From contig CBFIET010000175.1 in NCBI GenBank assembly GCA_965661685.1, positions 20,160-84,159 of the forward strand: 64,000 bases of DNA. Reading direction: 5' to 3'. This DNA is from Planctomycetota bacterium (GTDB taxonomy: Bacteria; Planctomycetota; UBA8108; UBA1146). Position 1 is the first letter of the stretch. The number at the start of each line of letters is the position of its first letter. Both the position numbers and the translations under genes were made by a program. Positions 9,206 through 59,279 of this stretch are shown here, piece by piece. Under the pieces are notes generated by a model. It worked only from the letters and a program-made list of their open reading frames with translations, was not told where the DNA came from and made no database searches.

Positions 9206-10726
9206 TCAGGGACAGGGATCTTCAAAAATAGTGAAGTCGCAATCGAGGAGATCCGGTGTCTGGTCGTTGCCACACCCAAGGAATGGGGGTGGCAATGGAT
9301 CGCCTGAACCGAAGAGGAAGGCGAGCAGTGAAATAGGGTCGGAAAGATCCAGAAGTGCGTCGTCGTTACAATCTGCGGTATCGAGGCAGGATGGGAGAGT
9401 CGAACCTGGATTGAAGAACCCCCCGAGAATCTCGATCACATCCGCGAGGTTGATCATCGAGTCGCCGTTCGCATCCCCTCGTCCAAAGTCTGGCCGGAAG
9501 GGCTCACCCTGGAAGTATTCGATGGAGTTGCTGCCTACACAGGAAATGACTGCATCCAGTACTCCGTCATTGTTGATATCCGTCACCTTCAAGCAAGTGG
9601 GATCATCAGGCAGCGAATAGGAACTGATTCCATCGAAGGGGATCCCATCGAGACCGTACCCTTTCAACACACTGAAGGTGGCACTGGAGGGATTGGAGAG
9701 GAAGAGCAGGTCCGCGGATCCTTCGCTCTCTGCATCTAACTTTGCGACGGTCAGGTCCAGGGCATTCACCACTTCATCTTCGTATCCCGTCACCGGATCC
9801 ATGAAAAGACCGGTATCTGTCCCCTGGAAAAAGACCAACGAATCTCCAGCAGTGGGAATACAGACCATATCCAGAATCTCAACCCCATCGGGTGTTTCCT
9901 GTAAGATGTCGACCAGTATCAACTCCTCTGCCACGTAGGAAATCGCTGTCTCCTGAATCAGCACCATTCCATCAATTCCCTCGTTGGAATAGACTCGCAC
10001 GCTGTCTCCTGCCAGGACCATATCGATGTCTGAATCGCCATTCAAATCACCGAAAGCTGCTGCGTTTGCTGGCGGGAACAAGGTGCTACTCAGATTGTAA
10101 TTTCCCGATCCATCCGAGAGCATCAGCCTCGTCTCTCCACCTCCAACGAACCCCGCAAGGGTCAAGATAATCAGATCCTCATACTGATCTCCATTGAGGT
10201 CAGCCATTTCCACTGAGGTGACAAAACCCACGCCCAGAAGTAATGCTTCTGGAGGAGCGAAGGTGCCGTCGCCAAGTCCCTGAATCAAATCAACCGTGCC
10301 GTCAACGTATGTCACGATCACATCGAATACATCGTCCTGGTCGAACTTGATCAGGAGGCCACCGGCTGGCTCGCTCGACAGCGCCATCGAACTTATCGGG
10401 GTCGTAGAAAACGTCTCCCCAGGATTCCCCAGAAACACCTCGAAGCGATACGGATCGAGGGACAGGACGATCAGATCCTGCTCTCCATCCAGGTTGGTGT
10501 CACAGACCATCATGTCCAACGGTTCAGCAGACACGGGCACGCTTTGAATCGGGAGGAAGTAACCCGAACCCAGTCCTTCTGGAACCTGGGAACTGGCAAC
10601 GGAATCAAAAGAACTAACAAAGAGTAGTACCACGGCAAGATGGAAGATCCTCGACACCGAGAATTTCTCCACCCACCAACGGTGCGAGTTTGAATACTTC
10701 ACGAAGTTGTACGAATTCGATCTCAT
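9206..10726 (-). CDS. Secreted FG-GAP/VCBS beta-propeller protein with a C-terminal dockerin-like Cys-rich module
   Basis: FG-GAP-type loops DLNGDQYEDLII, DLNGDSDIDMVLAG, DINNDGVLDAV. C-terminus DANGDSMINLADVIEILGGFF...CLDTADCNDDALLDLSDPISLLAFLFGSG...CGNDQTPDLLDC. The exact start is uncertain; a GTG (VEKFSV...) just before the signal peptide is possible. Confidence 0.75.
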   Translation of the reverse strand: MRSNSYNFVKYSNSHRWWVEKFSVSRIFHLAVVLLFVSSFDSVASSQVPEGLGSGYFLPIQSVPVSAEPLDMMVCDTNLDGEQDLIVLSLDPYRFEVFLGNPGETFSTTPISSMALSSEPAGGLLIKFDQDDVFDVIVTYVDGTVDLIQGLGDGTFAPPEALLLGVGFVTSVEMADLNGDQYEDLIILTLAGFVGGGETRLMLSDGSGNYNLSSTLFPPANAAAFGDLNGDSDIDMVLAGDSVRVYSNEGIDGMVLIQETAISYVAEELILVDILQETPDGVEILDMVCIPTAGDSLVFFQGTDTGLFMDPVTGYEDEVVNALDLTVAKLDAESEGSADLLFLSNPSSATFSVLKGYGLDGIPFDGISSYSLPDDPTCLKVTDINNDGVLDAVISCVGSNSIEYFQGEPFRPDFGRGDANGDSMINLADVIEILGGFFNPGSTLPSCLDTADCNDDALLDLSDPISLLAFLFGSGDPLPPPFLGCGNDQTPDLLDCDFTIFEDPCP

Positions 10727-27630: not shown

Positions 27631-30600
27631 TTGAGATCTGTTTGCTTCGTACTGGTGATGGCGTTTCTCACCGTACTACCCATCGGGTGTACCGGTCCTG
27701 ACGATTCACCATCGAAACAGATGCTGGATCTCCATCTTCTCGGCTTGAATTTTCTCTCTCAGCACAAGTTTGAAGATGCAGAGAAGACCCTTCAGCAACT
27801 GGTGAATGAAGCGCCTTCCGCCTTCGTCCCCCGCTTCAACCTGGCGATTGCGCAGTTGAATCAAGCGGAAAAAGGTGTCAAAAATGCGCTGCTGAACCTG
27901 CAGGCCGCAGATCGACTGAAGCCAGACTCTGCCCGCGTTCACTACTGCATCGGCATCATCGAACGATTCAATGGAAACGAAGAAGCCGCTCTGAGCTCCT
28001 TCCAGCGGGCACTTCATCTGGCAGCGCGCGACGCAGACTGCCATTACCAGGTTGCCATCGGACTGCTGAGAAGCGGCAAGAACTCGGAAGCACTTCCCCA
28101 TTTCGAGATGGCGGTACAACTCGATCCAACAATTCGAGGCGCATGGAACAACCTGCAACTTGCCTGGCGGCGGACTGGACAGAAAGAAAAAGCAGACGAA
28201 GCACTGGCTACCTTTCGAGAACTGGAATCAACCGGCAGGGGAAGAGCTCACAGCACCAAGTACACCGAGCAGGGAAAGATCGCCGAAGCAATTCGAGACT
28301 GGTCTCCAGCGAGGACCATCGGACCGGCTCCGAAGTGCAAGATGATGGAACCGGTTCTGATTTCAGGTGCAGTGGATGGCGAATTTCCGCCGTATTCCCT
28401 CGTTGATCTCGACCTCGACTGTATTGCTGATCTGTGGATCGCCGGCTCGAAGCCAGTGGTCTACGATCTCACCGAGGCCCCGAAAATCATCGAGTCCACC
28501 CTCCCCCTTCATGACTCCACCTGCTTCGCCGTCGGGGATGTCGATGAGGATGGAATCCCCGATCTGGCCGTCTCTGATCCCTCGTCGGTGAAAATCTACC
28601 GTGGCAAGGAGGGGCGTAATCCTGATTTCTCTGAACTGATCTCAACGGTCGATGTCAGTTGCTCCGATCTGATGCTCGCGGATATCGACATGGAGGGAGA
28701 CCTCGACCTACTGCTAGCGGGTTCCCGATCGGTGAGTCTGGCCCTCAATGAGGGAAGGCAGTTTCGATCACTGGCTGACTCCCCTTCCCTTTCCAGCAGC
28801 AGCACTGCACACACCATCGTCGCTGTTCGAGATCTCGATGGAGATCATGACCCCGATCTACTGGTAAACGGGGAGACCCTCTTGTGGATTGCCGGGGCTC
28901 CACAGTGGAAATTCGAGGAAAGTCCGGCCGACCGCCCACTGATCGGTAGCGGAGAACTGAAGCCTCAATCGGTAGTGCTCGTCGACCTGGTCGGCGACAA
29001 CCGTTCCGAACTTGTCGCGCTGGAGAACTCCAGGGTGAAAATCTATCGACGCTCCGCTTCCAGCACTTCGGAAGCCGGCAAGGCCATCTTCGAGGGTTCA
29101 GTGCCAGTGCCCTCCGAGATACTCGGCCAATCCTACTCTCAGCTTGCCGCAGTGGATCTCGATCTCGACGGCCAGCAGGAACTCCTGCTTCTGAACCCAG
29201 ATCGTACCTCGATCCTCTACAACAGCGCAGGAGTCCTCGAGCTGTCAACTTCCACCCTTCCGGGTGCGGTGAATGTTCTCGCTGCTGATGTCGATGGAGA
29301 TGGTGACCTCGATCTTGTCTTTCAGAAACAAGACGGTTCTCTGTGGCTCTCCAGAAATCAACTGGAGAAGGAAACGAACCAGCCACACTCGTTTCGTGCT
29401 CACCTCGGTGGGCGCAGGGATGGTGACGACCGTCGTACCAACCTTCTCGGTTTCGGTGCTCGACTGGAATTGAGGAATTCAAATCACTCGGTGCTGGCAT
29501 TCCAGGAGGGAAGCCGGGGCCACCGTTCCCGTGGCTTGCTACCGGTGATTGTCGGTACAGGATCCGCCACCCTGCTCAGCAGCCTCATCATCGACTGGCC
29601 CGATGGAGTTCTTCAGGGGGAGATCGATGTGGAACTCGATCGATGCCAGCAGATCGAAGAGGTGCAACGAAAGTCCTCCTCATGTCCGGTTCTCTTCACC
29701 TTTGACGGTCAGAGCTGGAACTTCATCACCGATTTCATGGGTGGAGGAGGGCTCGGTTTCTGGGTCGGACCCGACGAATATGCCCCTCCGGAACCGACCG
29801 AGGTGGTGCGCATCGCCCCCGAGTCTCTGAGACCTGTGGGAGATCGGCTGTTGCTCAGCATCATGGAACCGATGCAGGAGATCTGCTACGCCGATCGCCT
29901 GGCACTGCTGGCGGTCGATCATCCCGGCGAGACATCCTGCTACCCCGAGGAGTTCTTCCCCATCCAGGCGGCCCCCCCTTCGGGAGATCCGATGTTGCTA
30001 CAGCGAAGTTCACGAATCTTTCCTGCGTCGATTCGAGATGCTAGCAGTGAACTGGCGGTGGAGACGATTCTCGAGGTCGATCGCAAGTACGCAGGGCCCC
30101 GGGCGTTGGTTCCCGATCATGTAGGGTACTGTGAAGACCAGGTTTGGGAGTTCTCTTTCGATGAGGTGCCGACAGGGGATCAGATTGCACTGTTTCTCGA
30201 TGGCTGGGTGGAGTATCCGTACTCCCGCATCAACTTTGCAGCATGGCAGGGCGACAAGAGGTTACAGGCTCCAACATTTCGCTACCGAGGCTCCGATGAC
30301 GAACCGTGGCAACTACTCTGCCAGGAGCTGGGATACCCAGCGGGGATGCCCAAGACGATGGTTCTCGATGTCTCCGATATCATCTCTCGTGGAGCTCGTC
30401 AGATTCGAATCGAATCAAACCTGGAGCTCTACTGGGATCGGATCTTTCTGGCACCAGTCGCCGCTCCGTCACCACGCCAGATCCATTCCATCCCCATCCA
30501 CTCCGCAACGATGCGAGATGGAGGCTATCCGAGGGAGTACAGCGATGACGGCGAACTACCCGCCACCTACCACTACGAGGAGCGAGATCCAACTCTTGAT

Positions 30601-30933
30601 TACCGCCCGATGGAACGAGGTCATGTCACTAGCTACGGCGAGGTGAAAGAACTTCTTGAAACTGCCGATGATCGTTTCGTCATCATCGGCGGAGGAGATG
30701 AATTGCTGATCGAGTTCGATGCTTCGCAACTTCCGGAACTTCCGGCCGGATGGCAGCGGACCTGGCTCCTCGACACCTTTGGCTGGTGCAAGGATCTCGA
30801 TCCGTTGACGGGGGCTCGCAGTAGCGTCGGTCCGCTACCCTTCCGCGGCATGAGCCAGTATCCCCCGGCTGCTGACGATCGTGCTCCAGACAGAAGCCGC
30901 TACCAGAACCAGTGGAACACCCGGCGCGACTAG
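27631..30933 (+). CDS. 1100-aa secreted protein: N-terminal TPR repeats, FG-GAP/VCBS propeller repeats, large conserved C-terminal domain (possibly CRTAC1 / ASPIC-UnbV-like)
   Basis: Signal MRSVCFVLVMAFLTVLPIGC. TPR-like helices in the first ~180 aa. Loops DVDEDGIPDLAVSD, DIDMEGDLDLLLAG, DLDGDHDPDLLVNG, DVDGDGDLDLVF. Confidence 0.7.
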   Translation: MRSVCFVLVMAFLTVLPIGCTGPDDSPSKQMLDLHLLGLNFLSQHKFEDAEKTLQQLVNEAPSAFVPRFNLAIAQLNQAEKGVKNALLNLQAADRLKPDSARVHYCIGIIERFNGNEEAALSSFQRALHLAARDADCHYQVAIGLLRSGKNSEALPHFEMAVQLDPTIRGAWNNLQLAWRRTGQKEKADEALATFRELESTGRGRAHSTKYTEQGKIAEAIRDWSPARTIGPAPKCKMMEPVLISGAVDGEFPPYSLVDLDLDCIADLWIAGSKPVVYDLTEAPKIIESTLPLHDSTCFAVGDVDEDGIPDLAVSDPSSVKIYRGKEGRNPDFSELISTVDVSCSDLMLADIDMEGDLDLLLAGSRSVSLALNEGRQFRSLADSPSLSSSSTAHTIVAVRDLDGDHDPDLLVNGETLLWIAGAPQWKFEESPADRPLIGSGELKPQSVVLVDLVGDNRSELVALENSRVKIYRRSASSTSEAGKAIFEGSVPVPSEILGQSYSQLAAVDLDLDGQQELLLLNPDRTSILYNSAGVLELSTSTLPGAVNVLAADVDGDGDLDLVFQKQDGSLWLSRNQLEKETNQPHSFRAHLGGRRDGDDRRTNLLGFGARLELRNSNHSVLAFQEGSRGHRSRGLLPVIVGTGSATLLSSLIIDWPDGVLQGEIDVELDRCQQIEEVQRKSSSCPVLFTFDGQSWNFITDFMGGGGLGFWVGPDEYAPPEPTEVVRIAPESLRPVGDRLLLSIMEPMQEICYADRLALLAVDHPGETSCYPEEFFPIQAAPPSGDPMLLQRSSRIFPASIRDASSELAVETILEVDRKYAGPRALVPDHVGYCEDQVWEFSFDEVPTGDQIALFLDGWVEYPYSRINFAAWQGDKRLQAPTFRYRGSDDEPWQLLCQELGYPAGMPKTMVLDVSDIISRGARQIRIESNLELYWDRIFLAPVAAPSPRQIHSIPIHSATMRDGGYPREYSDDGELPATYHYEERDPTLDYRPMERGHVTSYGEVKELLETADDRFVIIGGGDELLIEFDASQLPELPAGWQRTWLLDTFGWCKDLDPLTGARSSVGPLPFRGMSQYPPAADDRAPDRSRYQNQWNTRRD

Positions 30934-44675: not shown

Positions 44676-44743
44676 CGCAAAGCACCTGGTCTTCTTTTAG
44701 AGTGTGCAAGAGTTCATCATCCAGGACGAAGCGGAGGCATATC

Positions 44744-46168
44744 ATGCAAGACCCCATGCAACACCCTGCGGCTACCAGAATCTTACTGCTAATTCTCCCG
44801 TGGCTACTGTTAGTTTCCTGTGGAGCCACCGCTTCGGAACAGTTTCCCCTCGGAATTCTCGGTGGGCAAGGGAAGGTTGAAGCAGGAAGCAACCTGTTGA
44901 CCATCGTCAAGGTTCATCAGGGCTCTCCGGCACAATCTGGTGGATTGCTGGCGGGGGATCGAATCCAGGGAATCGGCTCCGCCACCTTCAGCAAGCACTC
45001 TGCAAAGGTAGATGTGGGAGGTACGGGGCCGCAACGATCGCTGGGGGAAGCTCTCGACCAGATCGCCTCTCACACCGATGAAGAGCGAAGAACGATCAAC
45101 CTCTCCCTGCTCAGGGGAGAGGAAACGCTGACGATCGACGTCTCTCTCCCTCACAGGCCCACCGTCCTGTCTCCGGAAGGGCGGGCTCTCCTCGTAAAGA
45201 ATTGCGCACAGCAACTACTCTCCAGCCAGAGCAAGGGGGGACTGTGGAATGCTCCCGTCGGCTTGACCGGTGATCGCGTGCTGACCGCCTGGGCAGTGGT
45301 CGCATTGATGTCCACAGGAAACGAGGAATACCGCGAGGCCATCGATCGCGGAATCCAGTGGCTCCGTGGACCCGATGGAAATTGCTGGATCCAGGACGAC
45401 CCGCTGATCAAGGGACCGGATAACCTGGGAAACTGGGCGATCACTGCCACCGTGATGGCCCTCACCGAACACCATCTACTCAGCGGGGATCCTCTCGACC
45501 GTAGCGTCATCGAGAGGTGCTGCAAGGCGTTGAGTGCACGCATCACCGACGACGGTTTGTTTGGCCACGATGTTGTTCCCGGCTACAGCCGGAAGGGATT
45601 CAATGTCATCAACACCCTCTCCCATATGGCCTGGGCAGCCGCTTCCCAGGTGGGCATCACGCTCGATGAGAAGTCCTGGAACAGCAGTCTCGAACAGATC
45701 CGCAACTCCCTCGACAGCAATGGCGGCATCCGTTACTGGACGATGAAGGGAACCGGAACCCAGGACGCCTCACTGCGCACATCCTCCATGGCGCTCGGAC
45801 TCTCCATCGCCAGCACGGAGCAGGAACTCGCCAATACACTCGCCAAGTATCTCGCCACCCACCCGCAACGGACCAGGGAAGCTCACGCTGTAGGATCGAT
45901 GGGGATGATCCTGACACCTTCTGCATTGTGGCGACTCGATCGAGATGGTTATCAGACATTTCTCGATGAGTGGCGCTGGTACCTGGCCCTCACCCAGCAA
46001 CACGATGGTTCGATCCGCTACATCGGAGGCAAGCGGAACAACGGCGGAGATTCCTACCTGGGATTTCACAAGATCGGATGCATCATCGCGACGATGATCG
46101 TCACACCGCAACGACAGCACCTGCTGATGAATGGAAAAGCCCTGAATTCCAGCGGGAATCAGGACTAA
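44744..46168 (+). CDS. Secreted PDZ-domain protein with prenyltransferase / squalene-oxidase-like (alpha/alpha-toroid) repeats
   Basis: Signal ILLLILPWLLLVSC. PDZ VKVHQGSPAQSGGLLAGDRIQGIG. Toroid repeats GGLWNAPVGLTGDRVLTAWAVVALMSTG and NGGIRYWTMKGTG. Confidence 0.55.
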   Translation: MQDPMQHPAATRILLLILPWLLLVSCGATASEQFPLGILGGQGKVEAGSNLLTIVKVHQGSPAQSGGLLAGDRIQGIGSATFSKHSAKVDVGGTGPQRSLGEALDQIASHTDEERRTINLSLLRGEETLTIDVSLPHRPTVLSPEGRALLVKNCAQQLLSSQSKGGLWNAPVGLTGDRVLTAWAVVALMSTGNEEYREAIDRGIQWLRGPDGNCWIQDDPLIKGPDNLGNWAITATVMALTEHHLLSGDPLDRSVIERCCKALSARITDDGLFGHDVVPGYSRKGFNVINTLSHMAWAAASQVGITLDEKSWNSSLEQIRNSLDSNGGIRYWTMKGTGTQDASLRTSSMALGLSIASTEQELANTLAKYLATHPQRTREAHAVGSMGMILTPSALWRLDRDGYQTFLDEWRWYLALTQQHDGSIRYIGGKRNNGGDSYLGFHKIGCIIATMIVTPQRQHLLMNGKALNSSGNQD

Positions 46169-46284
46169 TCAGCCGATCCTGCCGAGTGGGATCGCTCCTT
46201 GGATTCCACCCTCTGAACCCTATGATGGAGTGTAATTGCCTCGATGTGTGAAGCCACGATTCGAGGCCTGAGAAGAGACTGGTC

Positions 46285-47028
46285 ATGAAACCATGGTTGA
46301 TCCTGATCGCCATCTTCACCGCCTCACTCTCCTGTTCGGCACAGGATCCGATCTTCCTTGAACTTGGAACGATCGAGTTCGATGAGATCACCGGTGAAGG
46401 CTCGGTAGAGATGATGATGACGAGCACCGTTCCCATCGCCGGATTCCAGTTCGATCTGACCTTTGACCCTACCTCGGTACAGTTGACCAGCGCTGTCGGT
46501 GGGCTTGCAGATACCTACGGATACACCGTCGGCTGGGGACCCACCACCGGAACCGTCATCGGCTACTCCCTGACACTGGTAGAGATCCCAGCCACCCTGG
46601 TTCCTGCACAACTGCTCACCGTCACCTTTACCTGCTCCTCCTGCTCCGGAACCGCTCCCGAGATCTGCATCGAAGCCCCGGTCTTTGCGGATGTGAATGC
46701 CAATGGCATCCCCACATCGATTGGTCCCTGCGATACGGCGAGTGCCCTACCTCTGTTCCTGCGAGGCGATTGCAACACCGATAGCAATGCGAACCTTGCA
46801 GATGCGATCTTCTTGCTGGCGAATCTCTTCTCTGGAGGCCCAGAAAGTGACTGCGTGGATGGGTGTGACTGTAATGACGACAACTCGCTGAATATCGCGG
46901 ATGCCATCTACTTCCTCAGTTACCTCTTCAATGGAGGTGCTCCGCCTGCACCGCCAGGAATCATCGAATGTGGACTCGACCCGACCGATGATTCCCTCGA
47001 CTGTTTGCTACCTGCGGCGTGCCCCTGA
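46285..47028 (+). CDS. Small secreted protein with an N-terminal cohesin-like domain and a C-terminal dockerin-like Cys-rich module
   Basis: Signal MKPWLILIAIFTASLSCSAQD. Cohesin-like blocks VPIAGFQFDLTFDPTSVQLTSA (compare GIANCDFVYSYDPNVLEI) and VFADVNANGI (compare GGFADNDLV). C-terminus DCNTDSNANLADAIFLLANLFSGG...CVDGCDCNDDNSLNIADAIYFLSYLFNGG...CGLDPTDDSLDC. Confidence 0.55.
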   Translation: MKPWLILIAIFTASLSCSAQDPIFLELGTIEFDEITGEGSVEMMMTSTVPIAGFQFDLTFDPTSVQLTSAVGGLADTYGYTVGWGPTTGTVIGYSLTLVEIPATLVPAQLLTVTFTCSSCSGTAPEICIEAPVFADVNANGIPTSIGPCDTASALPLFLRGDCNTDSNANLADAIFLLANLFSGGPESDCVDGCDCNDDNSLNIADAIYFLSYLFNGGAPPAPPGIIECGLDPTDDSLDCLLPAACP

Positions 47029-47050
47029 TCTCGAGCTGATCATCTGGTAG

Positions 47051-47935
47051 TCACTCGGGACGAGGATTGGCCTTGTAGGCCTCTTCCATTCCATCGGCCC
47101 ACCGAAACTCCGGCAATGTCGTGCGATCCAGTCGCTTCAGGTGCGGCTCACCGCTTCTAAGTGTCGGATGGATGTATTTCCAGTCTCCATCTCCGAACAC
47201 CTCCTGGCACAGTGCTGCCACTGGCGCATCGTATTCCAGTAGTTCTTCTCGGGTGTCGATATGATTGTGCTGATTATCATTTTCCCGGTTGGTATCGAAC
47301 CAGCACTGCACCGCTTCTGCCCAGTACTCCATCCGGTTGGTGGAAGCGTAGGCCCCCTCCCACAACCCCTTGTCGATGGCGGATTGATAACTGGCCTTCA
47401 AGCGATCGTCAAAGGTCGGGTCGGTGTAGCGAAGTCCCATCTCGTGGATGGCGTGGGCGAACTCGTGGATGAGGATGTTCTCGGTAGAATACGGATCTCC
47501 CACCATCGCCAGCAGGTTTTCCTCTCCACAGGAAACCGATGGACGAGCGGAGGTTGCGCCGAGTCCCCGTGCTCGACGATCCCAGTACTCCGGCGGTGTC
47601 AGATCCGAGTGCTCAGGAACATCAGTGGTCCACTCATCGTGGGCCATGACAGTAAACCTCGTCTTGCTTTCTGTCATCGCCTGTAAGATCTCCGGACGGT
47701 GCCCGATCATCTTGAGGATCAGGTATCTCGCTTCAACCAGCGATACGGGGTTGACCCTTTCGCTGGCAAGCACGGGGAACCCCATTGCGTCCGCATGCTG
47801 CTGGTAATAGGTGGGCAGGTTCAATTCGGCCCGCAAACCATCTGGAACCGGGCGAACCACCTCTGCCACTTCATCTCGCGGATGGAATGGCAAGCAGCCG
47901 CTCACGATCAAACCGATCCACAGGAATCTCTTCAC
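47051..47935 (-). CDS. HExxH zincin-like metallopeptidase lipoprotein
   Basis: Lipobox LIVSGC. ENILIHEFAHAIHEMG (HExxH) and a downstream EYWAE glutamate. Overlaps the rmuC stop. Confidence 0.65.
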   Translation of the reverse strand: MKRFLWIGLIVSGCLPFHPRDEVAEVVRPVPDGLRAELNLPTYYQQHADAMGFPVLASERVNPVSLVEARYLILKMIGHRPEILQAMTESKTRFTVMAHDEWTTDVPEHSDLTPPEYWDRRARGLGATSARPSVSCGEENLLAMVGDPYSTENILIHEFAHAIHEMGLRYTDPTFDDRLKASYQSAIDKGLWEGAYASTNRMEYWAEAVQCWFDTNRENDNQHNHIDTREELLEYDAPVAALCQEVFGDGDWKYIHPTLRSGEPHLKRLDRTTLPEFRWADGMEEAYKANPRPE

Positions 47936-49464: not shown

Positions 49465-49902
49465 TCAAGAATCCACGCCTCGTCTTGTTCTCTTTTTCGA
49501 TGCATCTTGAAAAGCGGCGATCAGAGCACCGGTTGAAATTCCTATCATCAAGGCGCCATTTACCGCTTCCAGTGGTCCCAAAAGCTTGTGCTTTGCCGAC
49601 ATCACCATATCTCCGTACCCCAGAGTGGCGAAGTTGACCGCAGAGTGATAAAAGGCCGCCTCGAACTTCTGGAACTCACCGAGAACGACAAAGAGTTGCG
49701 CCCACACTGCAATCTGGAGGATGTTCCCCACCAGTAACAGGGTCATGACTCCCTGCATGATGGCAATTCCTGACCAGATGGACGGGTTCACCAGCTTGCT
49801 GTTCCTTTTGCGATAAAAGCGCAACACCCAGACCAGTACGCTGAGCTGAAGAAACAGACACACCAATATGGTGCAGAATCCCAGGGCAAGGTTGCTTAGC
49901 AT
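49465..49902 (-). CDS. Small potassium channel (pore-loop with TLGYGD selectivity filter)
   Basis: FYHSAVNFATLGYGDMVM flanked by transmembrane helices. 145 aa. Overlaps the upstream gene's end. Confidence 0.8.
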   Translation of the reverse strand: MLSNLALGFCTILVCLFLQLSVLVWVLRFYRKRNSKLVNPSIWSGIAIMQGVMTLLLVGNILQIAVWAQLFVVLGEFQKFEAAFYHSAVNFATLGYGDMVMSAKHKLLGPLEAVNGALMIGISTGALIAAFQDASKKRTRRGVDS

Positions 49903-50966
49903 GGCATCGAATCCAATTCCTTCTCATCCGGAGTTCTCTTGGCATGAATAAAATCCAGAATGCGGACCGATAGCCATGCGTAAAGAGTCACTGCCACGAA
50001 CAAGCTGATCCTGGTGAAAAAGGCCTGGTAAACATCATTCCCATTTTCACTGTCCATGACAGCGGCCCCCAACAACAGGATGAGCGTCATCGTCACAGCT
50101 TGCCAAAATGAGGGAGGAAAACGGCTCTCCAGTACCCCGTAGATCTTGCCAGCAATGTAGGTGACGAAAATCAATGTCCACAGAAAAAACATCCACAGGT
50201 TTACCGAGAGGCCCAGTAACCACCAGAAGAAAACAGCAAAGCCTCCTCCCAACACAGTAGCCCCCAGCAATTCACGACCTGCTACCTTGATGTCGATGAG
50301 CGAACTTTGCTGCCCCAGAGCGATCGACTTCAACACCAGGGGCAAGTAAAGCCCCGGGTTTGTCAGAACCACCATGTAAGCGGGCATGACAATCAGTGTC
50401 GCTTTGAGAGCCTCCCAGTTCGATTCCGAACGAGCCTCCTCTGGATCTTTTTCTTTCCTGGTGACCACCGGGTCTTCTGGAAAAAAGGGATAAACCAACC
50501 ACTGGCAAACAACGGCGACAGCGACCCCGACCACCAATGACTCGATGACCAGGGTTGCAAGAACCGAACTGACTGACCCTGCGATGGGAACCAACGCGAT
50601 TCCTGAGGCGATGAAGTGCCCCAGGATCTCTTTTCCGCGAATCACTGACAGATAAAAACTCATGTACATGACAAGCCCAACCACCAATATTGCGGCGATT
50701 GGATAGAACTCCAGCCATGGAATGAGTAGCAGGCCACTGGCCATGGTCAGGGTGATCGCAATCAACAAGACGATCAGCTTCACGGGACCAGGTGGTGGAG
50801 CAGGATTGATCGTCAACAAGACGCCAAAGAATGGAACGATGTAAGGCAATTGAAGTTGAAGTGCATAACCACAGGCTAGCGACAGGGCAGTCGTCAAACT
50901 CAATCTAAAAACACGCCGAGCCTGAATTCCCATATCAACCGATCTCCCCGATGGTTTCATGCTCAA
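49896..50966 (-). CDS. DUF2955/FUSC-like inner-membrane protein (putative efflux component)
   Basis: Polytopic 356-aa protein that is co-operonic with the HlyD-family adaptor. Weak resemblance to FUSC/ArAE exporters. Confidence 0.6.
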   Translation of the reverse strand: MSMKPSGRSVDMGIQARRVFRLSLTTALSLACGYALQLQLPYIVPFFGVLLTINPAPPPGPVKLIVLLIAITLTMASGLLLIPWLEFYPIAAILVVGLVMYMSFYLSVIRGKEILGHFIASGIALVPIAGSVSSVLATLVIESLVVGVAVAVVCQWLVYPFFPEDPVVTRKEKDPEEARSESNWEALKATLIVMPAYMVVLTNPGLYLPLVLKSIALGQQSSLIDIKVAGRELLGATVLGGGFAVFFWWLLGLSVNLWMFFLWTLIFVTYIAGKIYGVLESRFPPSFWQAVTMTLILLLGAAVMDSENGNDVYQAFFTRISLFVAVTLYAWLSVRILDFIHAKRTPDEKELDSMPC

Positions 50967-52198
50967 TAGGCAAAACTGATCCAGCTAAGGAAACGGATGT
51001 AGATCTCACCGAGCATCTTCAAGAGAGGACGCCCTTCAGTATAGGCGATCACATCTGCCTGCCCGCCGATTCGCAACTGGGGGTATATTTTTGTGATCTG
51101 ATCGGCTTCAAAACTGATCACCACCGGAAATCTCTGCGTCTGACGCAACCAATCGCGATTGTTCTGGATGCTCGGTAGGCTCCCCGCTGGAGGTGGCTTG
51201 GTCGCAGTCACCCCCAGCCCTATACTCCGAACCTCTCCTCGAAAAACCTGGCCAGGAAGAGCGTCCAGAATGATCTCAACCGGGCAGCCCACTTCAAGAT
51301 GTCCAAGGTTGTTTTCTGTAAACTCCGCACTGATCCAGACCTCATGCATTGCTATCAGCGTCATCACGGGCGCACCCGTTCCCGCAAACTGCCCCACGTC
51401 AGCTCGCAAATCGGTGATCATTCCTCTCGAGGAAGCGCGAACTACGGTGCTTTCGAGATCCAGTTGTGCCTTCTCCACTGCACTGACAGCAGCCTTCACC
51501 TGAGCATTGTCAGTCTCTTCTCCACCTCTCTGGCCAATCGCACGTTGAATCTCAGCTTCTGCGCCTGTAACCATCGCTCGAGCTTGCTCCAGAGTGGCAC
51601 GAGCAATCTCAAGCCGGCGAACAGAAATGGTTCCTGAATCCTGTTGATACAAACGCTCCTGACGGTTTGCGTCCTGCTCCGCCTTGAGTTCATTTGCCTG
51701 TGCAGCTCTGAGGTTGGCGCGAGCGGATTCGATTCCTGCACTGCCTGCTCCAAGCTGACTATTGGCTTTTTGTAGATCCGAATTCGCCTTGCGTAGTGCG
51801 ATTTCATAATTTGATTTGTCGATCTCGAACAAGGGTTGGCCCTTAACCACCTCCTGGTTGTTCTCTACCAACACCTTTGTCACAACTCCCGAAACCTTTG
51901 GGGAAACCCCGACAACAAATCCCTGTACGCGGGCCTGACTCGTATAGGGGGTGAAACGGTCTGCCAGTAGATTCCACAGCAAGCTGACCAGAATCACGGC
52001 GATAATCAACTTCATACCCTTGCCGAGGGTAGCCCTCGACTTCGTCACCGTTTCATCGGCAGTATCTGCTACATCTTCTTCGTCTTGCTGCTCCGCTGGG
52101 GAATGCTCAACTTGAGGTTCTTCCCCCTCGCCTGGTGAAGTCTCAACGACAGGTGCATTCTCTTGATTTTCTTCGCTCGCCTTTTTGTCTTCACTCAT
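50963..52198 (-). CDS. HlyD-family membrane-fusion (periplasmic adaptor) protein, EmrA-like
   Basis: Transmembrane anchor, long coiled-coil (ALRKANSDLQKANSQL...), and beta-barrel/lipoyl segments. Confidence 0.85.
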   Translation of the reverse strand: MSEDKKASEENQENAPVVETSPGEGEEPQVEHSPAEQQDEEDVADTADETVTKSRATLGKGMKLIIAVILVSLLWNLLADRFTPYTSQARVQGFVVGVSPKVSGVVTKVLVENNQEVVKGQPLFEIDKSNYEIALRKANSDLQKANSQLGAGSAGIESARANLRAAQANELKAEQDANRQERLYQQDSGTISVRRLEIARATLEQARAMVTGAEAEIQRAIGQRGGEETDNAQVKAAVSAVEKAQLDLESTVVRASSRGMITDLRADVGQFAGTGAPVMTLIAMHEVWISAEFTENNLGHLEVGCPVEIILDALPGQVFRGEVRSIGLGVTATKPPPAGSLPSIQNNRDWLRQTQRFPVVISFEADQITKIYPQLRIGGQADVIAYTEGRPLLKMLGEIYIRFLSWISFAY

Positions 52199-53741
52199 TT
52201 TGCGAATCCTTGTTACCTGTTTGCGGCCTGTCGATTAGAGGAGCCTCGATCAGATCTCCCCAGTCAGTTCTCTCACTCATCTGGTCGTGGGTTTCTGCGG
52301 CAATCATTTCATCAAGACTTGAAGGATTCCAACCTCCACCGAGACTTTTGTACAGGCTGACAACTGCATCGAGATGGCCTCCTCGATTGAGTATCTGCCT
52401 TTCAACCTGGCTAAAGAAAGCCCGCTGCGCTGAAAGAACTCTCTGGAAATCGCAGTAACCCTCTCGATAACGGGTATTTGCAATCTCAAGAGCACGCTTG
52501 GCTGCGTCGACAGATTCGTCGAGAATTATCTGCTGTTCAGCAGTCTTCAGAAGCTCGAATGTCGCATTATCGACTTCCCTTGCTGCCTCCAGAACTGTTG
52601 CCTGAAACCCTTCGATCAACTGCTGTAGTCTGGCATCTTGAATTCTTACATTGTTGGCGATCGCACCATGATCAAACAGGTTCCAGCGAAATGCCGGTCC
52701 TGCAGAAAGACTGCTCGCATCCGGGATGCTGTTCAAGTTACTACTGGACCACCCCAGGGACCCGAGCAATGAAATCGCTGGATAGTAATCCGCCTGCGCG
52801 ATTCCAATTCGTGCCGATTGTGCGGCCACCTGCCACGCTGCGACTCGAATGTCTGGCCGTCGTGTCAGCAACCGAGCGGGGAAATTACCGATCATCTCCG
52901 GTTTCACTGACGGTAACCCGAACTCAATATCCGACAGTTCTGGAATCGAATCTGGCGGTCTTCCTAAAAGGATACAAATCGCATTCCGGGTGTTCCGAAG
53001 AGCTAGTTCCAGTTGAGGTATTGCCGACAAAGTCGCCAGGTACTGAGTTCTGGCCTGCTGGAAATCCAGTTCTGATTCATCGCCCTCGGTAAATCTCTCT
53101 TCGGTGATATCAAAACTACGCTTCTGAATCCTTGCGTTGTTCCGGGTTATCGCGATGCGAGCCCCGGTAACCCTGTAGGAGAAGTACAAACTCGCTACTT
53201 GCGAAGCAATCAACACCTGCAAATCACGCTGCTGAGAAACAGACGCGAAAAAACCTGCATCTGCGGATTCAACTGCTCGCTGAAATCGCCCCCAAAAATC
53301 CAGTTCCCAGCCCACAACGCCCTGTGCTTGCGTTACGACCTGATCGGTAGTTCCGCCCCCATCTAGGTGGCTAGAGACCGCCTCCGTAGCACCGCTCACT
53401 TGCTGGACCTGTGGAAAGAGGGAACTTCCTGCAAGACCCTGAACCGCACGGCTTTCTAAAATTCGCAGGCCTGCAATACGCAGTGACAGATTGTCTTCAT
53501 GAGCAGTTTCGATCAGTGATACGAGGACAGGATCTTCAAACTGTAACCACCATGACTGGATCCGAGTGGGATCCAGACTGGACGAGTTGACCTCGGAATA
53601 TGATTCGGGTTGCCATTCTTCAAGCCAGCTGACTTCAGGTTCCTGAAACTCCGGGCCGAGTGTGGTGCACGCACTGAGTGTCACTACCACAAGGAGCAAG
53701 GCAGTCCTCTTGACCCGTCGCTTGAGTTGGACCTTGGTCAT
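52191..53741 (-). CDS. Outer-membrane efflux lipoprotein (NodT/OprM-type OMF)
   Basis: Lipobox LLLVVVTLSAC. Two TolC-like repeats with the conserved ...LF.QG...LD.. helices. Confidence 0.85.
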   Translation of the reverse strand: MTKVQLKRRVKRTALLLVVVTLSACTTLGPEFQEPEVSWLEEWQPESYSEVNSSSLDPTRIQSWWLQFEDPVLVSLIETAHEDNLSLRIAGLRILESRAVQGLAGSSLFPQVQQVSGATEAVSSHLDGGGTTDQVVTQAQGVVGWELDFWGRFQRAVESADAGFFASVSQQRDLQVLIASQVASLYFSYRVTGARIAITRNNARIQKRSFDITEERFTEGDESELDFQQARTQYLATLSAIPQLELALRNTRNAICILLGRPPDSIPELSDIEFGLPSVKPEMIGNFPARLLTRRPDIRVAAWQVAAQSARIGIAQADYYPAISLLGSLGWSSSNLNSIPDASSLSAGPAFRWNLFDHGAIANNVRIQDARLQQLIEGFQATVLEAAREVDNATFELLKTAEQQIILDESVDAAKRALEIANTRYREGYCDFQRVLSAQRAFFSQVERQILNRGGHLDAVVSLYKSLGGGWNPSSLDEMIAAETHDQMSERTDWGDLIEAPLIDRPQTGNKDSQNE

Positions 53742-53745
53742 CAAC

Positions 53746-54858
53746 TTACTCGCTAACCGCCAGGCTGTCCCCCTGCTCCTCGGGGTTTCCATTTTCGACC
53801 CAGTCCATGAAAACCTGATATCCCAGGGCCAACAGGACCGCTCCCAGAAACAAACCGATCAATCCGTATGAAAACATTCCACCCAACGCCCCCAGCAAGA
53901 TGATGGGCATGGGTACCTCGACACCCCGACCCAGAAGGAGCGGCTTGAGAAATCCATCTGACATTCCGGTAACCACCAGATAAACCGTCACCATGATATT
54001 GTGCGTGGTGGAAGTATCTCCGCTCATCCAGATGTAAATGATGACCGGCAGTGTGAGCACCAACGCAGGAAGTTGAGCGATTCCCATCAACAAGGCCAGC
54101 AGTGCCAGGATTCCGGCGGCGGGTATGCCAGCCCAGACGAAGCCAACACCCAGGAAAAGTGACTGGAGAAAGGCAACTCCCACGACTCCCATCGCCACGG
54201 AACGAATCGTCATCGTCGATAAATTATGCAGACCCGGTCCTTTTTCCACTGACGTCAATCGACTCAAGATTTTTAACATTGCTGCGCTACCTGACTTACC
54301 GTAAGCCATCATGATTCCTGCGATGATCAACGAACCGAGAAATTGAAGGAGTGAACTGGCGGTACTGGCAATGGTGCCCAGCGCAGTTTTCGCCATCTGT
54401 TCCAGTTGCGGCTTCATGCTGATCATGAACGCAGGCAGATCTTCTGAAGCCTGGGTCCATAGCGACGACAAGGTCTTTCCTATCAAAGGCCACTGGGCGA
54501 CTGAAGCCGGTGGAGGATCGAGCGCAAAGGACTCGGAAGAAAATGTCTCGTACTTCTCGTGCAGGAACTCTGAAAACGATGTTCCCAGCAGAATTGTCGG
54601 GAGTCCAACCAGTAACAAACCTGACAGCACCAGTAACGTTGCTGCTCTCCCCTGTTTGTCATTCAGTTTCCTGGCAAGGATTTGATGGAGCGGATACAGG
54701 ACCACTGCCAGGACCAATCCCCACAGCATCAATCCCATAAAAGGTGAGAAAATTCGCAGGCAGATAATCACCAGTAACCCGATGAGACCCACAGTGACAA
54801 ATGCATCGTTCAGATCACTGAACAATCTCTTTCGGATCGAACTATATTCTGATTGCAT
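53746..54858 (-). CDS. AI-2E family transporter (PerM/YhhT-like, UPF0118)
   Basis: Start MQSEYSSIRKRLF. Eight predicted transmembrane helices. The 3-prime end abuts the OMF start. Confidence 0.75.
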   Translation of the reverse strand: MQSEYSSIRKRLFSDLNDAFVTVGLIGLLVIICLRIFSPFMGLMLWGLVLAVVLYPLHQILARKLNDKQGRAATLLVLSGLLLVGLPTILLGTSFSEFLHEKYETFSSESFALDPPPASVAQWPLIGKTLSSLWTQASEDLPAFMISMKPQLEQMAKTALGTIASTASSLLQFLGSLIIAGIMMAYGKSGSAAMLKILSRLTSVEKGPGLHNLSTMTIRSVAMGVVGVAFLQSLFLGVGFVWAGIPAAGILALLALLMGIAQLPALVLTLPVIIYIWMSGDTSTTHNIMVTVYLVVTGMSDGFLKPLLLGRGVEVPMPIILLGALGGMFSYGLIGLFLGAVLLALGYQVFMDWVENGNPEEQGDSLAVSE

Positions 54859-54978
54859 GGCAACGCCTCCCCATCCTTTTTCACTATAATCGATGAGGCC
54901 GGGTATTGTATCCCGAATTGATATCATCCCTCGTCAGCGCCAGGATCCTGATTCAGACTTCATCATCGAGAAAGATGA

Positions 54979-57443: not shown

Positions 57444-59279
57444 CTACATGCAACTCCCCTGTGTCTCTTCGCAGGAGAGCGGATCGTCGGTCGGGTCCGA
57501 ACCACAGTCGAAGGGTTCCGGCGGTGCGGCCCCCGATTGAAACAAGTAATCGAGGAGCGAAACCACATCCGAGATATCGTTCGTACCGTCGTCGTTACAA
57601 TCCACGGAATCGAGACAATCAGGTGCGGTGCCCCCTCCGAACAAGTAGAGGAGCGCCCCCACCGCATCTGCAACATCTCTATTGCCATCGTCATTGACAT
57701 CACCGCGTCGAAAACTCGATTGCGGAATGCCGACAACATAGGAACGCTCGGAGGTGGTCATGGAGTTCCCGGCGAAATCAGTAACTCGAATTCGGTAGAT
57801 GACCGTTGTGGAAAACCCGGGATCAGGAACAAGACCTCGATATAAATCGTGTCCGGACCAAGACATCGGAACGGGAGCAAACTGGGCTCCCGTCGACCAC
57901 TCCAGGATGACGGACTGAAAAAAGGCACCGTGATCGGAAGTCATGTCATCTCGAACCACGGCTCTGACGATGCTAGAGCCGCTTCCCACGAGGATATCAG
58001 GGAGTTCTTCCCAGAAAGGAACGGTCGGTGGCCGGGTATCGGCGGGTCCCTGGTTGAGATACAGGCGGTTCCTGAAGGCTCCGCTCTCCCCCTGGGCGGT
58101 TATCATGTCGAGATCGCCATCCGCATCCAGATCCCCCACCTCGACATCGAGCGAACTGTCAGACACCGACGAGATGACCCCGCCAACCAGTGTCAGGAAT
58201 CCGTTGCCGTTGTTATTCAGCATCCTCTCCGGCCCGCCGATGGCGCAGATCACCACATCGAGGTCTCCATCGTTGTCATAATCGAGAAACTTGCTGTCGT
58301 TGTCATCGATGTTCGGATTCGAGGAGTTTGGAAGCAGCGTCGAGGTCACGTTCGTGAAGGAGGCGGATCCATCATTCTGGAAGATGGCCTCCCTCGACCC
58401 CACTCCCGAGTTTGCTCCCACCACATCCAGATCTCCATCCCCGTCGAGATCACCAAGATCATAGGAATAGGTGTTGGAATCTGGAGGAAGGTTGCCGGAG
58501 GTCTCATCGGTGAAGATTCCACCCTCGTTGATGTAGAGCTTTGAATTTCCATCTCGATGTCCCTCGATCATGTCGAGGTCGAGATCTCCGTCGAGGTCTC
58601 CAAAGATGCAATCCATCGGTGCTGAAACATTTTGTAATGGCAGCCGTTGATTGGTTCCGTTGCTGTATACACCGTTTCCATCATTGACCCACAGTTGCGC
58701 CTGGCCCGATCCGAACCGGGTCGATCCGCCACGTGTATACCAGAGGTCAAGATCGCCATCGTTGTCGATGTCTCCAAAGGCGCAATGTGAACTCGACATG
58801 TTGAACTGGGGAATGCGTGTCGCAGATTCATCGGTGAAAAAACCGTTGCCATCATTGATGAGAAGTTTTTGCGGAGTGAGGAAATCATTCGCCACGGCCA
58901 TGTCGAGGTCGCCATCGCCATCGACATCACCCAGTTCTACATCTCTTCCGTATCCGATCAGGTTTCCCAGACGATTCACCGACTCGTCGGTGAATACCGC
59001 ATTACCATCGTTGATGTACAGTCGAACTCGCTGCGCCTGACCGGGCGAGGCGAATCCACTGCCGTTGGCAAAGCACAGGTCGAGATCTCCATCACCGTCC
59101 ACGTCACCGATGGCTACCTGGCTGGAATATTCGTTAAAGACCGGTAATCGGCCGTTACTCGATTCCAGAAATTGCTGCGCCTCGACGCCGCTGGATGCGC
59201 TGAATCCGATCAATACCGTCAAGAAGCAAACTGGCAGGCAATACCTCACCACACTCTCCTCCCCGATACTCCACGTCAT
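57444..59279 (-). CDS. Secreted seven-bladed FG-GAP/VCBS beta-propeller protein with Ig-like domain and C-terminal dockerin-like Cys-rich module
   Basis: Signal peptide. Seven DxDxDGDLD loops (DVDGDGDLDLCF, DVDGDGDLDMAV, DIDNDGDLDLWY, DLDGDLDLDMIE, DLDGDGDLDVVG, DYDNDGDLDVVI, DLDADGDLDMIT). C-terminus DVNDDGNRDVADAVGALLYLFGGG...CLDSVDCNDDGTNDISDVVSLLDYLF...CGSDPTDDPLSC. Confidence 0.75.
   Translation of the reverse strand: MTWSIGEESVVRYCLPVCFLTVLIGFSASSGVEAQQFLESSNGRLPVFNEYSSQVAIGDVDGDGDLDLCFANGSGFASPGQAQRVRLYINDGNAVFTDESVNRLGNLIGYGRDVELGDVDGDGDLDMAVANDFLTPQKLLINDGNGFFTDESATRIPQFNMSSSHCAFGDIDNDGDLDLWYTRGGSTRFGSGQAQLWVNDGNGVYSNGTNQRLPLQNVSAPMDCIFGDLDGDLDLDMIEGHRDGNSKLYINEGGIFTDETSGNLPPDSNTYSYDLGDLDGDGDLDVVGANSGVGSREAIFQNDGSASFTNVTSTLLPNSSNPNIDDNDSKFLDYDNDGDLDVVICAIGGPERMLNNNGNGFLTLVGGVISSVSDSSLDVEVGDLDADGDLDMITAQGESGAFRNRLYLNQGPADTRPPTVPFWEELPDILVGSGSSIVRAVVRDDMTSDHGAFFQSVILEWSTGAQFAPVPMSWSGHDLYRGLVPDPGFSTTVIYRIRVTDFAGNSMTTSERSYVVGIPQSSFRRGDVNDDGNRDVADAVGALLYLFGGGTAPDCLDSVDCNDDGTNDISDVVSLLDYLFQSGAAPPEPFDCGSDPTDDPLSCEETQGSCM

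What the first reader, a model, noticed from the sequence alone, without database searches (positions are those of the whole stretch)
46285..47028. A single small secreted protein carrying both a cohesin-like and a dockerin-like module
The 247-aa protein has a signal peptide and then a roughly 150-aa beta-rich domain whose conserved blocks (VPIAGFQFDLTFDPTSVQL; VFADVNANGI) resemble type-I cohesin signatures (GIANCDFVYSYDPNVLEI; GGFADNDLV). It ends in the same duplicated D-x-N-x-D...LL..LF..GG dockerin-like segment plus Cys-rich tail found on two FG-GAP proteins in this window. Cohesin plus dockerin in one polypeptide is the architecture of adaptor scaffoldins. Outside cellulolytic Firmicutes such modules are barely characterised. 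Here it could form a self-assembling or anchoring node for the dockerin-bearing propeller proteins.
Basis: partly seen in the sequence, partly recalled or inferred. Interest (0 to 1): 0.75.

Follow-up and report, generated by a model that had tools for sequence, protein, structure and literature searches.

The report
Small secreted cohesin–dockerin adaptor protein

Summary

Best reading: a secreted monovalent adaptor scaffoldin (ScaC-like) in a non-cellulolytic system. Binding partners, anchoring and self-assembly are untested. The concept is published (non-cellulosomal cohesin/dockerin modules, the "planctosome", Cloacimonadota scaffoldins), so this is a new variant of a known kind, of moderate interest.

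The parts
46285..46341 (+). Signal peptide (residues 1-19), with predicted signal-peptidase I cleavage after A19. The mature N-terminus Q20 is invariant in orthologues.
   Evidence: Direct reading of the sequence; A19 >=90% conserved and Q20 invariant in alignment A1; low pLDDT N-terminal helix in the model. No signal-peptide predictor was available.
46348..46734 (+). Divergent cohesin module ('FQF' clade), residues ~22-150. It has nine beta strands and the conserved motifs PIAGFQF, GGLA, (V/I)xG(Y/F)SL, IP and C128...G-P-C149.
46735..46755 (+). Short linker (residues 151-157, TASALPL) between the two modules.
   Evidence: pLDDT dips to ~73 in the residue block 151-160; this stretch varies among orthologues.
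46756..46938 (+). Dockerin module (residues 158-218). It has two 22-residue repeats, each a Ca-binding loop (D162..D173; D195..D206) followed by a helix.
46939..47025 (+). Pro-rich, Cys-rich C-terminal tail of the dockerin (residues 219-247; PPxPPG..CG.DPT.D.L.C....CP). It probably braces the dockerin through disulfides.
   Evidence: C190, C229, C240 and C246 are invariant in orthologues. C163 and C194 co-occur in 58 cargo modules, are both absent in 24 and are discordant in 4 of 86, which suggests a C163-C194 disulfide. The module ends at the protein's C-terminus in all 125 ORFs that carry it in the related loci. The disulfides are inferred, not shown.
57447..57713 (-). Same dockerin+tail module at the C-terminus of the 611-aa FG-GAP propeller protein (57444..59279). 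It is a candidate cargo or partner.
   Evidence: hmmsearch E 8e-27; 51% identity to the target's module; FG-GAP_3 E 5.7e-42. Orthologues at 76-86% identity lie 4-5 kb downstream of the adaptor gene in 8 MAGs.
9209..9487 (-). Same dockerin+tail module at the C-terminus of the 506-aa FG-GAP protein (9206..10726).
   Evidence: hmmsearch E 8e-24; 47% identity to the target's module; FG-GAP_3 E 1.8e-16 and Dockerin_1 E 0.016.

Best explanation
The gene encodes a secreted, non-catalytic monovalent adaptor scaffoldin made of a signal peptide, one cohesin and one dockerin. Shown: the two folds, their family relationships, the intact Ca-loop residues, the conservation of the gene, and the presence of the same dockerin type on other secreted proteins of the genome. 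Inferred: after Sec export and cleavage at A19|Q20, the dockerin folds around two Ca2+ ions and is braced by disulfides from the Cys-rich tail. The cohesin's 8-3-6-5 sheet carries the family's conserved motifs on strands 3, 6 and 8, and it binds the dockerin of another secreted protein. The most likely partner is a dockerin of a different subtype, such as those on the FG-GAP propellers. The protein's own dockerin plugs into a second cohesin on an anchoring or scaffolding protein encoded elsewhere in the genome. In this way the adaptor links dockerin-tagged, non-cellulolytic surface proteins (FG-GAP propellers, haem peroxidase-like and CotH-like proteins in related genomes) into an extracellular or cell-surface assembly.
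For: Cohesin fold. Sequence link to a solved, dockerin-binding cohesin: (E 3.5e-5), with weaker support. Dockerin fold and Ca loops. The same dockerin sits on exactly two other ORFs in the window and on 125 ORFs in related loci, always at the C-terminus. The N-domain clade behaves as cohesins do: tandem arrays of up to 13 copies, ends in T9SS tails, TM anchors or canonical dockerins, and 42 of 262 retrieved members are single cohesin plus C-terminal dockerin. The adaptor's dockerins differ from cargo dockerins at canonical contact positions 18 and 22 of both repeats (Ala/Ser against Asn/Gln/Leu) and in Cys pattern. That is what a type-switching adaptor would show. The architecture matches the published definition of a monovalent adaptor, with ScaC as archetype. 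The gene is found once in nearly all of the ~25 MAGs that carry it, and is conserved at 44-95% identity.
Against: No binding data exist, and no complex could be modelled with these tools. Neither module reaches Pfam's gathering score. hhalign of the family profile against two single cohesin sequences found nothing. No anchoring scaffoldin or second cohesin was found in the 64-kb window. The contact-position differences could simply reflect the fact that the adaptor dockerins are one orthologous group, while the cargo set pools paralogues. Conserved synteny with neighbours, including the FG-GAP gene, may be plain colinearity of related genomes, and one orthologue (P0049) sits in a different context.
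Confidence: 0.55

Rival explanations
1. Self-assembling unit. The cohesin binds the dockerin of another copy of the same protein, giving head-to-tail chains or a matrix to which other dockerin proteins may attach, rather than bridging two different partners.
For: No anchor motif exists in the protein and no other cohesin in the window. The one-cohesin-plus-one-dockerin small-protein design recurs across phyla (42 of 262). The linker is only ~7-10 residues, and pTM is 0.61 despite high pLDDT, which gives no sign of an intramolecular clasp and favours binding in trans. [quoted passage not shown]
Against: There is no direct evidence. In characterised adaptors such as ScaC, the cohesin and dockerin have different specificities. 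Self-polymerisation of a secreted protein would need control, and none is evident.
Confidence: 0.2
2. The N-domain has the cohesin fold but binds something other than a dockerin, such as a glycan, a surface or another protein. It would then be just another cargo domain displayed through the C-terminal dockerin.
For: Similarity to canonical cohesins is remote: Pfam sub-threshold and 9-22% identity in the structural alignments. Beta-sandwich adhesin and carbohydrate-binding domains also appear lower in the fold lists. Many clade members have no detectable dockerin in the same protein (204 of 262).
Confidence: 0.15
3. The C-terminal module is not a working dockerin. It would be a Ca-binding, disulfide-stabilised C-terminal sorting or attachment domain recognised by an export or anchoring machinery, in the way T9SS C-terminal domains are.
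For: The module lies at the extreme C-terminus in all 125 ORFs, with a conserved terminal C-P/C-N. There is a weak hit to an NCBIfam model named 'GC-type dockerin domain-anchored protein'.
Confidence: 0.1

Closest known systems
Monovalent adaptor scaffoldins of cellulosomes, archetype Ruminococcus flavefaciens ScaC (Rincon et al. 2004, as cited in PMC11557425)
   Different: The organism is a marine planctomycete, not a Firmicute. No glycoside-hydrolase cargo is seen: the dockerin-tagged proteins are FG-GAP propellers and, in relatives, haem-peroxidase-like, CotH-like and unknown proteins. The cohesin is too divergent for Pfam. The dockerin has a Cys-rich disulfide tail. The partner specificities are unknown.
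'Planctosome' hypothesis for freshwater Planctomycetes (Nemodlikiaceae), Andrei et al. 2019, PMC6461901
   Same: A non-cellulosomal cohesin/dockerin system in Planctomycetes, including a secreted adaptor that carries both a dockerin and a cohesin.
   Different: That adaptor is ordered SP-dockerin-HYR-cohesin and is proposed to bind Zn-peptidases, with an LTD-anchored giant protein. Here the order is SP-cohesin-dockerin with no HYR domain, in a marine lineage with different cargo, and no anchor protein has been identified. Both proposals are purely computational.
Ruminococcus bromii amylosome protein Amy4 (PMC4611034)
   Same: It has a cohesin and a dockerin in one polypeptide in a non-cellulolytic system, with published potential for self-aggregation.
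   Different: Amy4 is a large amylase, whereas the protein here has no catalytic domain.
Non-cellulosomal cohesins with solved structures: Archaeoglobus fulgidus cohesin (2xdh) and Clostridium perfringens cohesin-like modules (2jh2, 2vo8, 2w1n)
   Different: Only 9-16% identity; different phyla and different partner proteins.
Scaffoldin-like protein with tandem cohesins and a T9SS C-terminal domain in Cloacimonadota (PMC8542988)
   Same: The wider clade of this N-domain includes comparable giants: P0155 has 13 copies plus a T9SS tail, and P0156 has 13-14 copies plus a C-terminal TM segment.
   Different: Those cohesins were recognised by standard domain models. The clade found here is not recognised by Pfam. 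The target itself is a single-copy adaptor, not an array.

Membership tests
Cohesin domain (Pfam PF00963; cohesin superfamily) | Scores at or above Pfam's gathering threshold (24.1 bits) | tested here: not met
   There is no hit on the full-length protein. On the isolated domain, Cohesin is the only hit, in register (residues 26-100 against model positions 26-105 of 139), but at 13.9 bits and E 0.064.
Cohesin domain (Pfam PF00963; cohesin superfamily) | Nine-stranded flattened beta-sandwich (jelly-roll) superposable on solved cohesins | tested here: met
Cohesin domain (Pfam PF00963; cohesin superfamily) | Statistically significant sequence relationship to an experimentally characterised cohesin | tested here: met
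   A profile of 79 diverse domain instances hits 5n5p_A (R. flavefaciens ScaB cohesin, solved in complex with a dockerin) at E 3.5e-5 over ~100 of 117 positions, with the next hit at E 0.084. A narrower profile gave E 0.005. hhalign against two single cohesin sequences gave nothing.
Cohesin domain (Pfam PF00963; cohesin superfamily) | Occurs in scaffoldin-like contexts (tandem arrays, cell-surface anchors) and together with dockerins | tested here: met
   53 of 262 members have >=3 copies, with up to 13. T9SS tail, TM and Dockerin_1 ends occur. 58 of 262 carry a dockerin-like double loop.
Cohesin domain (Pfam PF00963; cohesin superfamily) | Binds a dockerin with high affinity | not testable with these tools
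   This needs ITC, pull-down or multimer modelling. Only single-chain models without coordinates or PAE were available.
Dockerin type I (Pfam PF00404) | Scores at or above Pfam's gathering threshold (22.9 bits) | tested here: not met
   15.9 bits, E 0.015. Homologous modules on other proteins do pass, for example P0014 at 27.3, L005 DHOR protein at 26.0 and L030 at 23.4 bits.
Dockerin type I (Pfam PF00404) | Two ~22-residue repeats, each an EF-hand-like Ca loop (D-x-N/D-x-D-x3-N/D-x-x-D) followed by a helix | tested here: met
   Direct reading gives D162/N164/D166/N170/D173 and D195/N197/D199/N203/D206. All are 100% conserved in 25 orthologous modules. Helices span 171-182 and 204-216 in the model.
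Dockerin type I (Pfam PF00404) | Dockerin fold | tested here: met
Dockerin type I (Pfam PF00404) | Ca2+-dependent folding and cohesin binding | not testable with these tools
   This is an experimental property.
Monovalent adaptor scaffoldin (ScaC-like) | Secreted protein with exactly one cohesin and one dockerin and no catalytic domain | tested here: met
   The definition is taken from PMC11557425.
Monovalent adaptor scaffoldin (ScaC-like) | Cohesin and dockerin of different specificities (type switching) | tested here: inconclusive
   Adaptor dockerins differ from cargo dockerins at contact positions 18 and 22 and in Cys pattern. Those differences may only reflect orthology against paralogy, and specificity itself was not measured.
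Monovalent adaptor scaffoldin (ScaC-like) | A cognate anchoring or primary scaffoldin in the same genome | tested here: inconclusive
   None was found in the 64-kb window, and the rest of the genome was not available. Related contigs encode other proteins with Pfam-type cohesin signals: P0017 as Doc-Coh-Doc, and L030:4387-6276 with a weak signal.
Cellulosome (functional system) | Dockerin-bearing plant-cell-wall glycoside hydrolases as cargo | tested here: not met
   The dockerin-bearing proteins seen are FG-GAP propellers, a DHOR di-haem protein, CotH-like, PPDK_N-like and unknown proteins. No GH domains were found.
NCBIfam NF041540 'GC-type dockerin domain-anchored protein' | Score at or above the curated cut-off (29 bits) | tested here: not met
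   15.9 bits, E 0.013.
'Planctosome' adaptor (PMC6461901) | SP-dockerin-HYR-cohesin order with peptidase cargo | tested here: not met
   Here the order is SP-cohesin-dockerin, with no HYR domain and no dockerin-bearing peptidase in the window.

The most novel reading that the evidence does not exclude
The target would be the smallest, most tractable member of a large cohesin clade that Pfam and NCBIfam do not annotate. The clade is marked by the PIAGFQF...GGxA...LGFSL...C...G.C signature and has 677 cluster representatives at E<=0.001. It would build non-cellulosomal extracellular assemblies in marine Planctomycetota, Neomarinimicrobiota and FCB-group bacteria, from one-cohesin adaptors up to T9SS- or membrane-anchored scaffoldins with 13-14 cohesins. 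In these planctomycetes the adaptor, with its disulfide-braced dockerin, would organise FG-GAP propellers and redox proteins at the cell surface, making a marine 'planctosome' with adhesive or redox functions rather than polysaccharide-degrading ones.
Probability: 0.3. Interest if true: 0.6.

Novelty: new variant of a known kind. Interest (0 to 1): 0.42.

Why it matters
Cohesin-dockerin pairs are the best-understood natural system for building extracellular protein machines, and they are widely reused in synthetic biology. Almost all experimental knowledge of them comes from cellulolytic Firmicutes. This protein shows that standard domain models miss a whole cohesin clade that is common in uncultured marine bacteria. 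It also offers a 228-residue mature protein, containing both halves of the interaction, as an easy entry point for testing what such systems assemble in planctomycetes. If binding is confirmed, it would supply a new orthogonal, disulfide-stabilised cohesin-dockerin pair. It would also give the first experimental handle on the 'planctosome' idea, which so far rests on annotation alone.

Tried and rejected
- Pfam and NCBIfam on the full-length protein gave no cohesin hit, and the dockerin hit was sub-threshold.
- phmmer and a narrow orthologue profile against PDB sequences gave only weak dockerin hits and noise for the N-domain.
- hhalign of the family profile against a single Pfam-recognised planctomycete cohesin (P0017) and against CipA cohesin 2 (sequence verified against 1ohz/1anu) gave probability <=2%. 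A profile against one sequence is too weak at this distance.
- The third large homology search, seeded with P0017's cohesin to build a true cohesin profile, returned nothing. No profile-to-profile test against a cohesin family alignment could therefore be run.
A2 was used instead.
- The promoter/terminator scan of 44400-48100 found nothing, so operon structure with the upstream PDZ-DUF6288 gene remains open.
- A lipoprotein signal was considered and rejected. The Cys at position 17 is not preceded by a lipobox and is absent from orthologues.
- An intramolecular cohesin-dockerin clasp is not supported. pTM is only 0.61 despite high per-domain confidence, and the linker is very short. Without coordinates this is weak evidence.
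- The 47051..47935 and 44702..46168 neighbours were considered as functional partners. Neither carries a dockerin or cohesin.

Full report
**Observation.** The ORF at 46285..47028 (+) is present as described: ATG start, 247 codons. The window has 51-62% G+C. Its closest public relative is an uncultured marine Planctomycetia MAG (L006, 95% protein identity). Full-length orthologues at 44-69% identity occur in about 25 species-level Planctomycetota MAGs, including the UBA1146 lineage, and nearly always as a single hit per genome. The gene is therefore real and under selection. Read directly, the N-terminus is a Sec signal peptide (MK, a hydrophobic core, then S-C-S-A|Q). The Ala-Gln at the predicted cleavage site is conserved in orthologues (A19 at >=90%, Q20 invariant), whereas the Cys at position 17 is not, which argues against a lipoprotein.

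**N-terminal domain.**
- Pfam and NCBIfam give no cohesin hit on the full-length protein.
- Scanned alone, the domain's only Pfam hit is Cohesin PF00963. The match is in register but below threshold (13.9 bits, E 0.064, cut-off 24.1). Cohesin is also the only family that recurs among 45 trimmed relatives.
- An AlphaFold model built on a 122-sequence alignment is confident (mean pLDDT 87.9, N-domain mostly >90) and shows nine strands between residues 23 and 146.
- With Foldseek against the PDB, the top 37 hits are all cohesins of types I, II and III, plus the non-cellulosomal A. fulgidus and C. perfringens modules. The best E-value is 8.9e-9, with TM about 0.63-0.70 normalised to the target.
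- By sequence, a profile of 45 relatives has the R. flavefaciens ScaB cohesin 5n5p_A as its best hit among 177,635 distinct PDB sequences (E 0.005). A broader profile of 79 domain instances raises this to E 3.5e-5 over about 100 of 117 positions, with the next hit at 0.084.
- hhalign against single cohesin sequences found nothing, and my attempt to build a true cohesin profile failed.

I conclude that the domain is a genuine but very divergent cohesin. It fails Pfam's membership score but meets the fold test and a profile-based homology test.

The module continues into a Pro- and Cys-rich tail that ends the protein. C190, C229, C240 and C246 are invariant in orthologues. Across 86 cargo modules, C163 and C194 are either both present (58) or both absent (24), with only 4 discordant cases, which points to a C163-C194 disulfide. 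The disulfides are inferred.

**The same module elsewhere.** In 61 related loci it occurs in 125 ORFs, always at the extreme C-terminus. The cargo includes FG-GAP propellers, a DHOR di-haem protein, CotH-like and PPDK_N-like proteins and many unknowns, but no glycoside hydrolases. Only one cohesin of this clade is present in the window, and the other large ORFs show no cohesin or obvious anchoring scaffoldin.

**The wider clade.** An exhaustive HMM search with the orthologue profile finds 677 cluster representatives at E<=0.001. Among 262 retrieved members:
- 53 have three or more tandem copies, with up to 13. P0155 has 13 copies and a T9SS sorting tail. P0156 has 13-14 copies and a C-terminal transmembrane segment.
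- 58 carry a dockerin-like double loop, C-terminal in 55 of them.
- 42 have exactly the target's design of one domain plus a C-terminal dockerin.

Pfam does not label these tandem domains as cohesins. Members occur in Neomarinimicrobiota, other marine MAGs and rumen Bacteroidaceae/Prevotella as well as Planctomycetota. This behaviour (arrays, surface anchors, dockerin partners) is what cohesins do, and it supports function as well as fold.

**Genomic context.** The order DUF1573 (-), PDZ-DUF6288 (+), target (+), a 294-aa HExxH protein (-), RmuC (-) is conserved in orthologous loci down to 44-48% identity (L001, L003, L004). It is absent around P0049. The FG-GAP-dockerin gene 57444..59279 has orthologues at 76-86% identity lying 4-5 kb downstream of the adaptor gene in eight MAGs. 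This may be simple colinearity, so I give it little weight. No sigma-70-like promoter or intrinsic terminator was detected around the gene.

**Mechanism.** The architecture is that of a monovalent adaptor scaffoldin, with R. flavefaciens ScaC as archetype. My best explanation (confidence about 0.55) has three steps, all inferred. The secreted protein uses its cohesin to capture a dockerin-tagged protein. It uses its own dockerin to attach to a second cohesin encoded elsewhere. In this way it wires non-cellulolytic surface proteins into an assembly.

Two observations fit type switching. First, the adaptor's dockerins carry small Ala/Ser at canonical contact positions 18 and 22 of both repeats, where cargo dockerins mostly have Asn, Gln or Leu. 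Second, the adaptor belongs to the C163-C194 subtype, whereas both FG-GAP dockerins in the window lack that pair and have C196 instead. These differences could also reflect comparing one orthologous group with pooled paralogues.

By strand order in the model, the family's most conserved motifs lie on strands 3 (GFQF), 6 (xLGFS) and 8 (C-x-x-x-x-V-x-S/A-D). Together with strand 5, these strands form the dockerin-binding sheet in solved type I complexes. That mapping is an inference from secondary-structure order, not a 3D superposition.

The rival explanations are:
- head-to-tail self-assembly, with the precedent of R. bromii Amy4;
- a cohesin fold that binds a ligand other than a dockerin;
- a C-terminal module that serves as a sorting or anchoring signal rather than a working dockerin.

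**Comparison with what is known, and novelty.** The following have all been published as computational inferences:
- non-cellulosomal cohesin and dockerin modules across the three domains of life (Peer et al. 2009, cited; I could not read the paper itself);
- a planctomycete 'planctosome' with a cohesin+dockerin adaptor (PMC6461901);
- dockerin expansions in kelp-associated Planctomycetes (PMC5264255);
- a T9SS-anchored multi-cohesin scaffoldin in Cloacimonadota (PMC8542988).

Three things are new here: the recognition of a large cohesin clade that Pfam and NCBIfam do not annotate, the disulfide-braced dockerin subtype, and the specific SP-cohesin-dockerin adaptor conserved in a marine planctomycete lineage with FG-GAP cargo. 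I rate it a new variant of a known kind, with interest about 0.4. It is a solid, well-supported annotation and a good experimental entry point, but not a conceptual surprise.

Noticed in passing
Proteins P0155 (3321 aa), P0156 (2104 aa), P0159, P0160, P0161, P0164: Giant proteins carry 6-13 tandem copies of the same divergent cohesin-like domain, and Pfam does not annotate those copies. P0155 also has RGI-lyase beta-sheet domains and a T9SS sorting tail, and P0156 ends in a transmembrane segment. They look like unrecognised scaffoldins of marine FCB/Marinimicrobia-type bacteria.
   Followed up: partly
L030:1-7641 (+), and likewise L031, L035, L037, L040-L042, L044, L046-L048: Related Planctomycetota MAGs share a conserved cluster of four consecutive same-strand genes (about 510, 611, 630 and 454 aa), each ending in the Cys-rich dockerin module. 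The third gene has a weak Pfam Cohesin signal (E 4.4e-4, residues 70-103). This may be another part of the same interaction network. No such cluster is present in the window.
   Followed up: partly
window 44702..46168 (+): The gene immediately upstream lies on the same strand after a 116-nt gap. It encodes a secreted PDZ + DUF6288 protein with a weak squalene-hopene-cyclase-like repeat hit. Its adjacency to the adaptor gene is conserved in orthologous loci down to 44-48% identity. It has no dockerin or cohesin.
   Followed up: partly
window 47051..47935 (-): A convergent 294-aa gene starts only 22 nt beyond the adaptor's stop codon. It contains an HEFAH motif and has weak hits to Peptidase_M90 and anthrax lethal-factor-like Zn-metallopeptidase models (E 7e-4 and 4e-3). 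It is conserved next to the adaptor in the orthologous loci examined (L001-L004).
   Followed up: no
window 49896..54927 (-): A DUF2955 / HlyD-type membrane-fusion / outer-membrane efflux (OEP) gene set lies between RmuC and RecQ. The same block is present in L003 and L004 but absent in L001, so it is an indel that moves the FG-GAP-dockerin gene from about 4 kb to about 10 kb away from the adaptor.
   Followed up: no
window 27631..30933 (+): A 1100-aa TPR + FG-GAP + ASPIC/UnbV protein is a third FG-GAP protein in the window, but it lacks the dockerin module.
   Followed up: no
L012 (QNYK01000046.1): A contig carrying a 69%-identical orthologue of this planctomycete gene is deposited as a 'Bacillota bacterium' MAG, which is probably a mis-binned or mislabelled contig.
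   Followed up: no
P0017 (390 aa), P0014, P0015: These metagenomic proteins have a Cys-tail dockerin at both ends and a central domain that is a Pfam-recognised or near-threshold cohesin (P0017 at 28 bits, P0015 at 19.4 bits). They are a Doc-Coh-Doc design distinct from the target and could be partners for dockerins of this type.
   Followed up: partly
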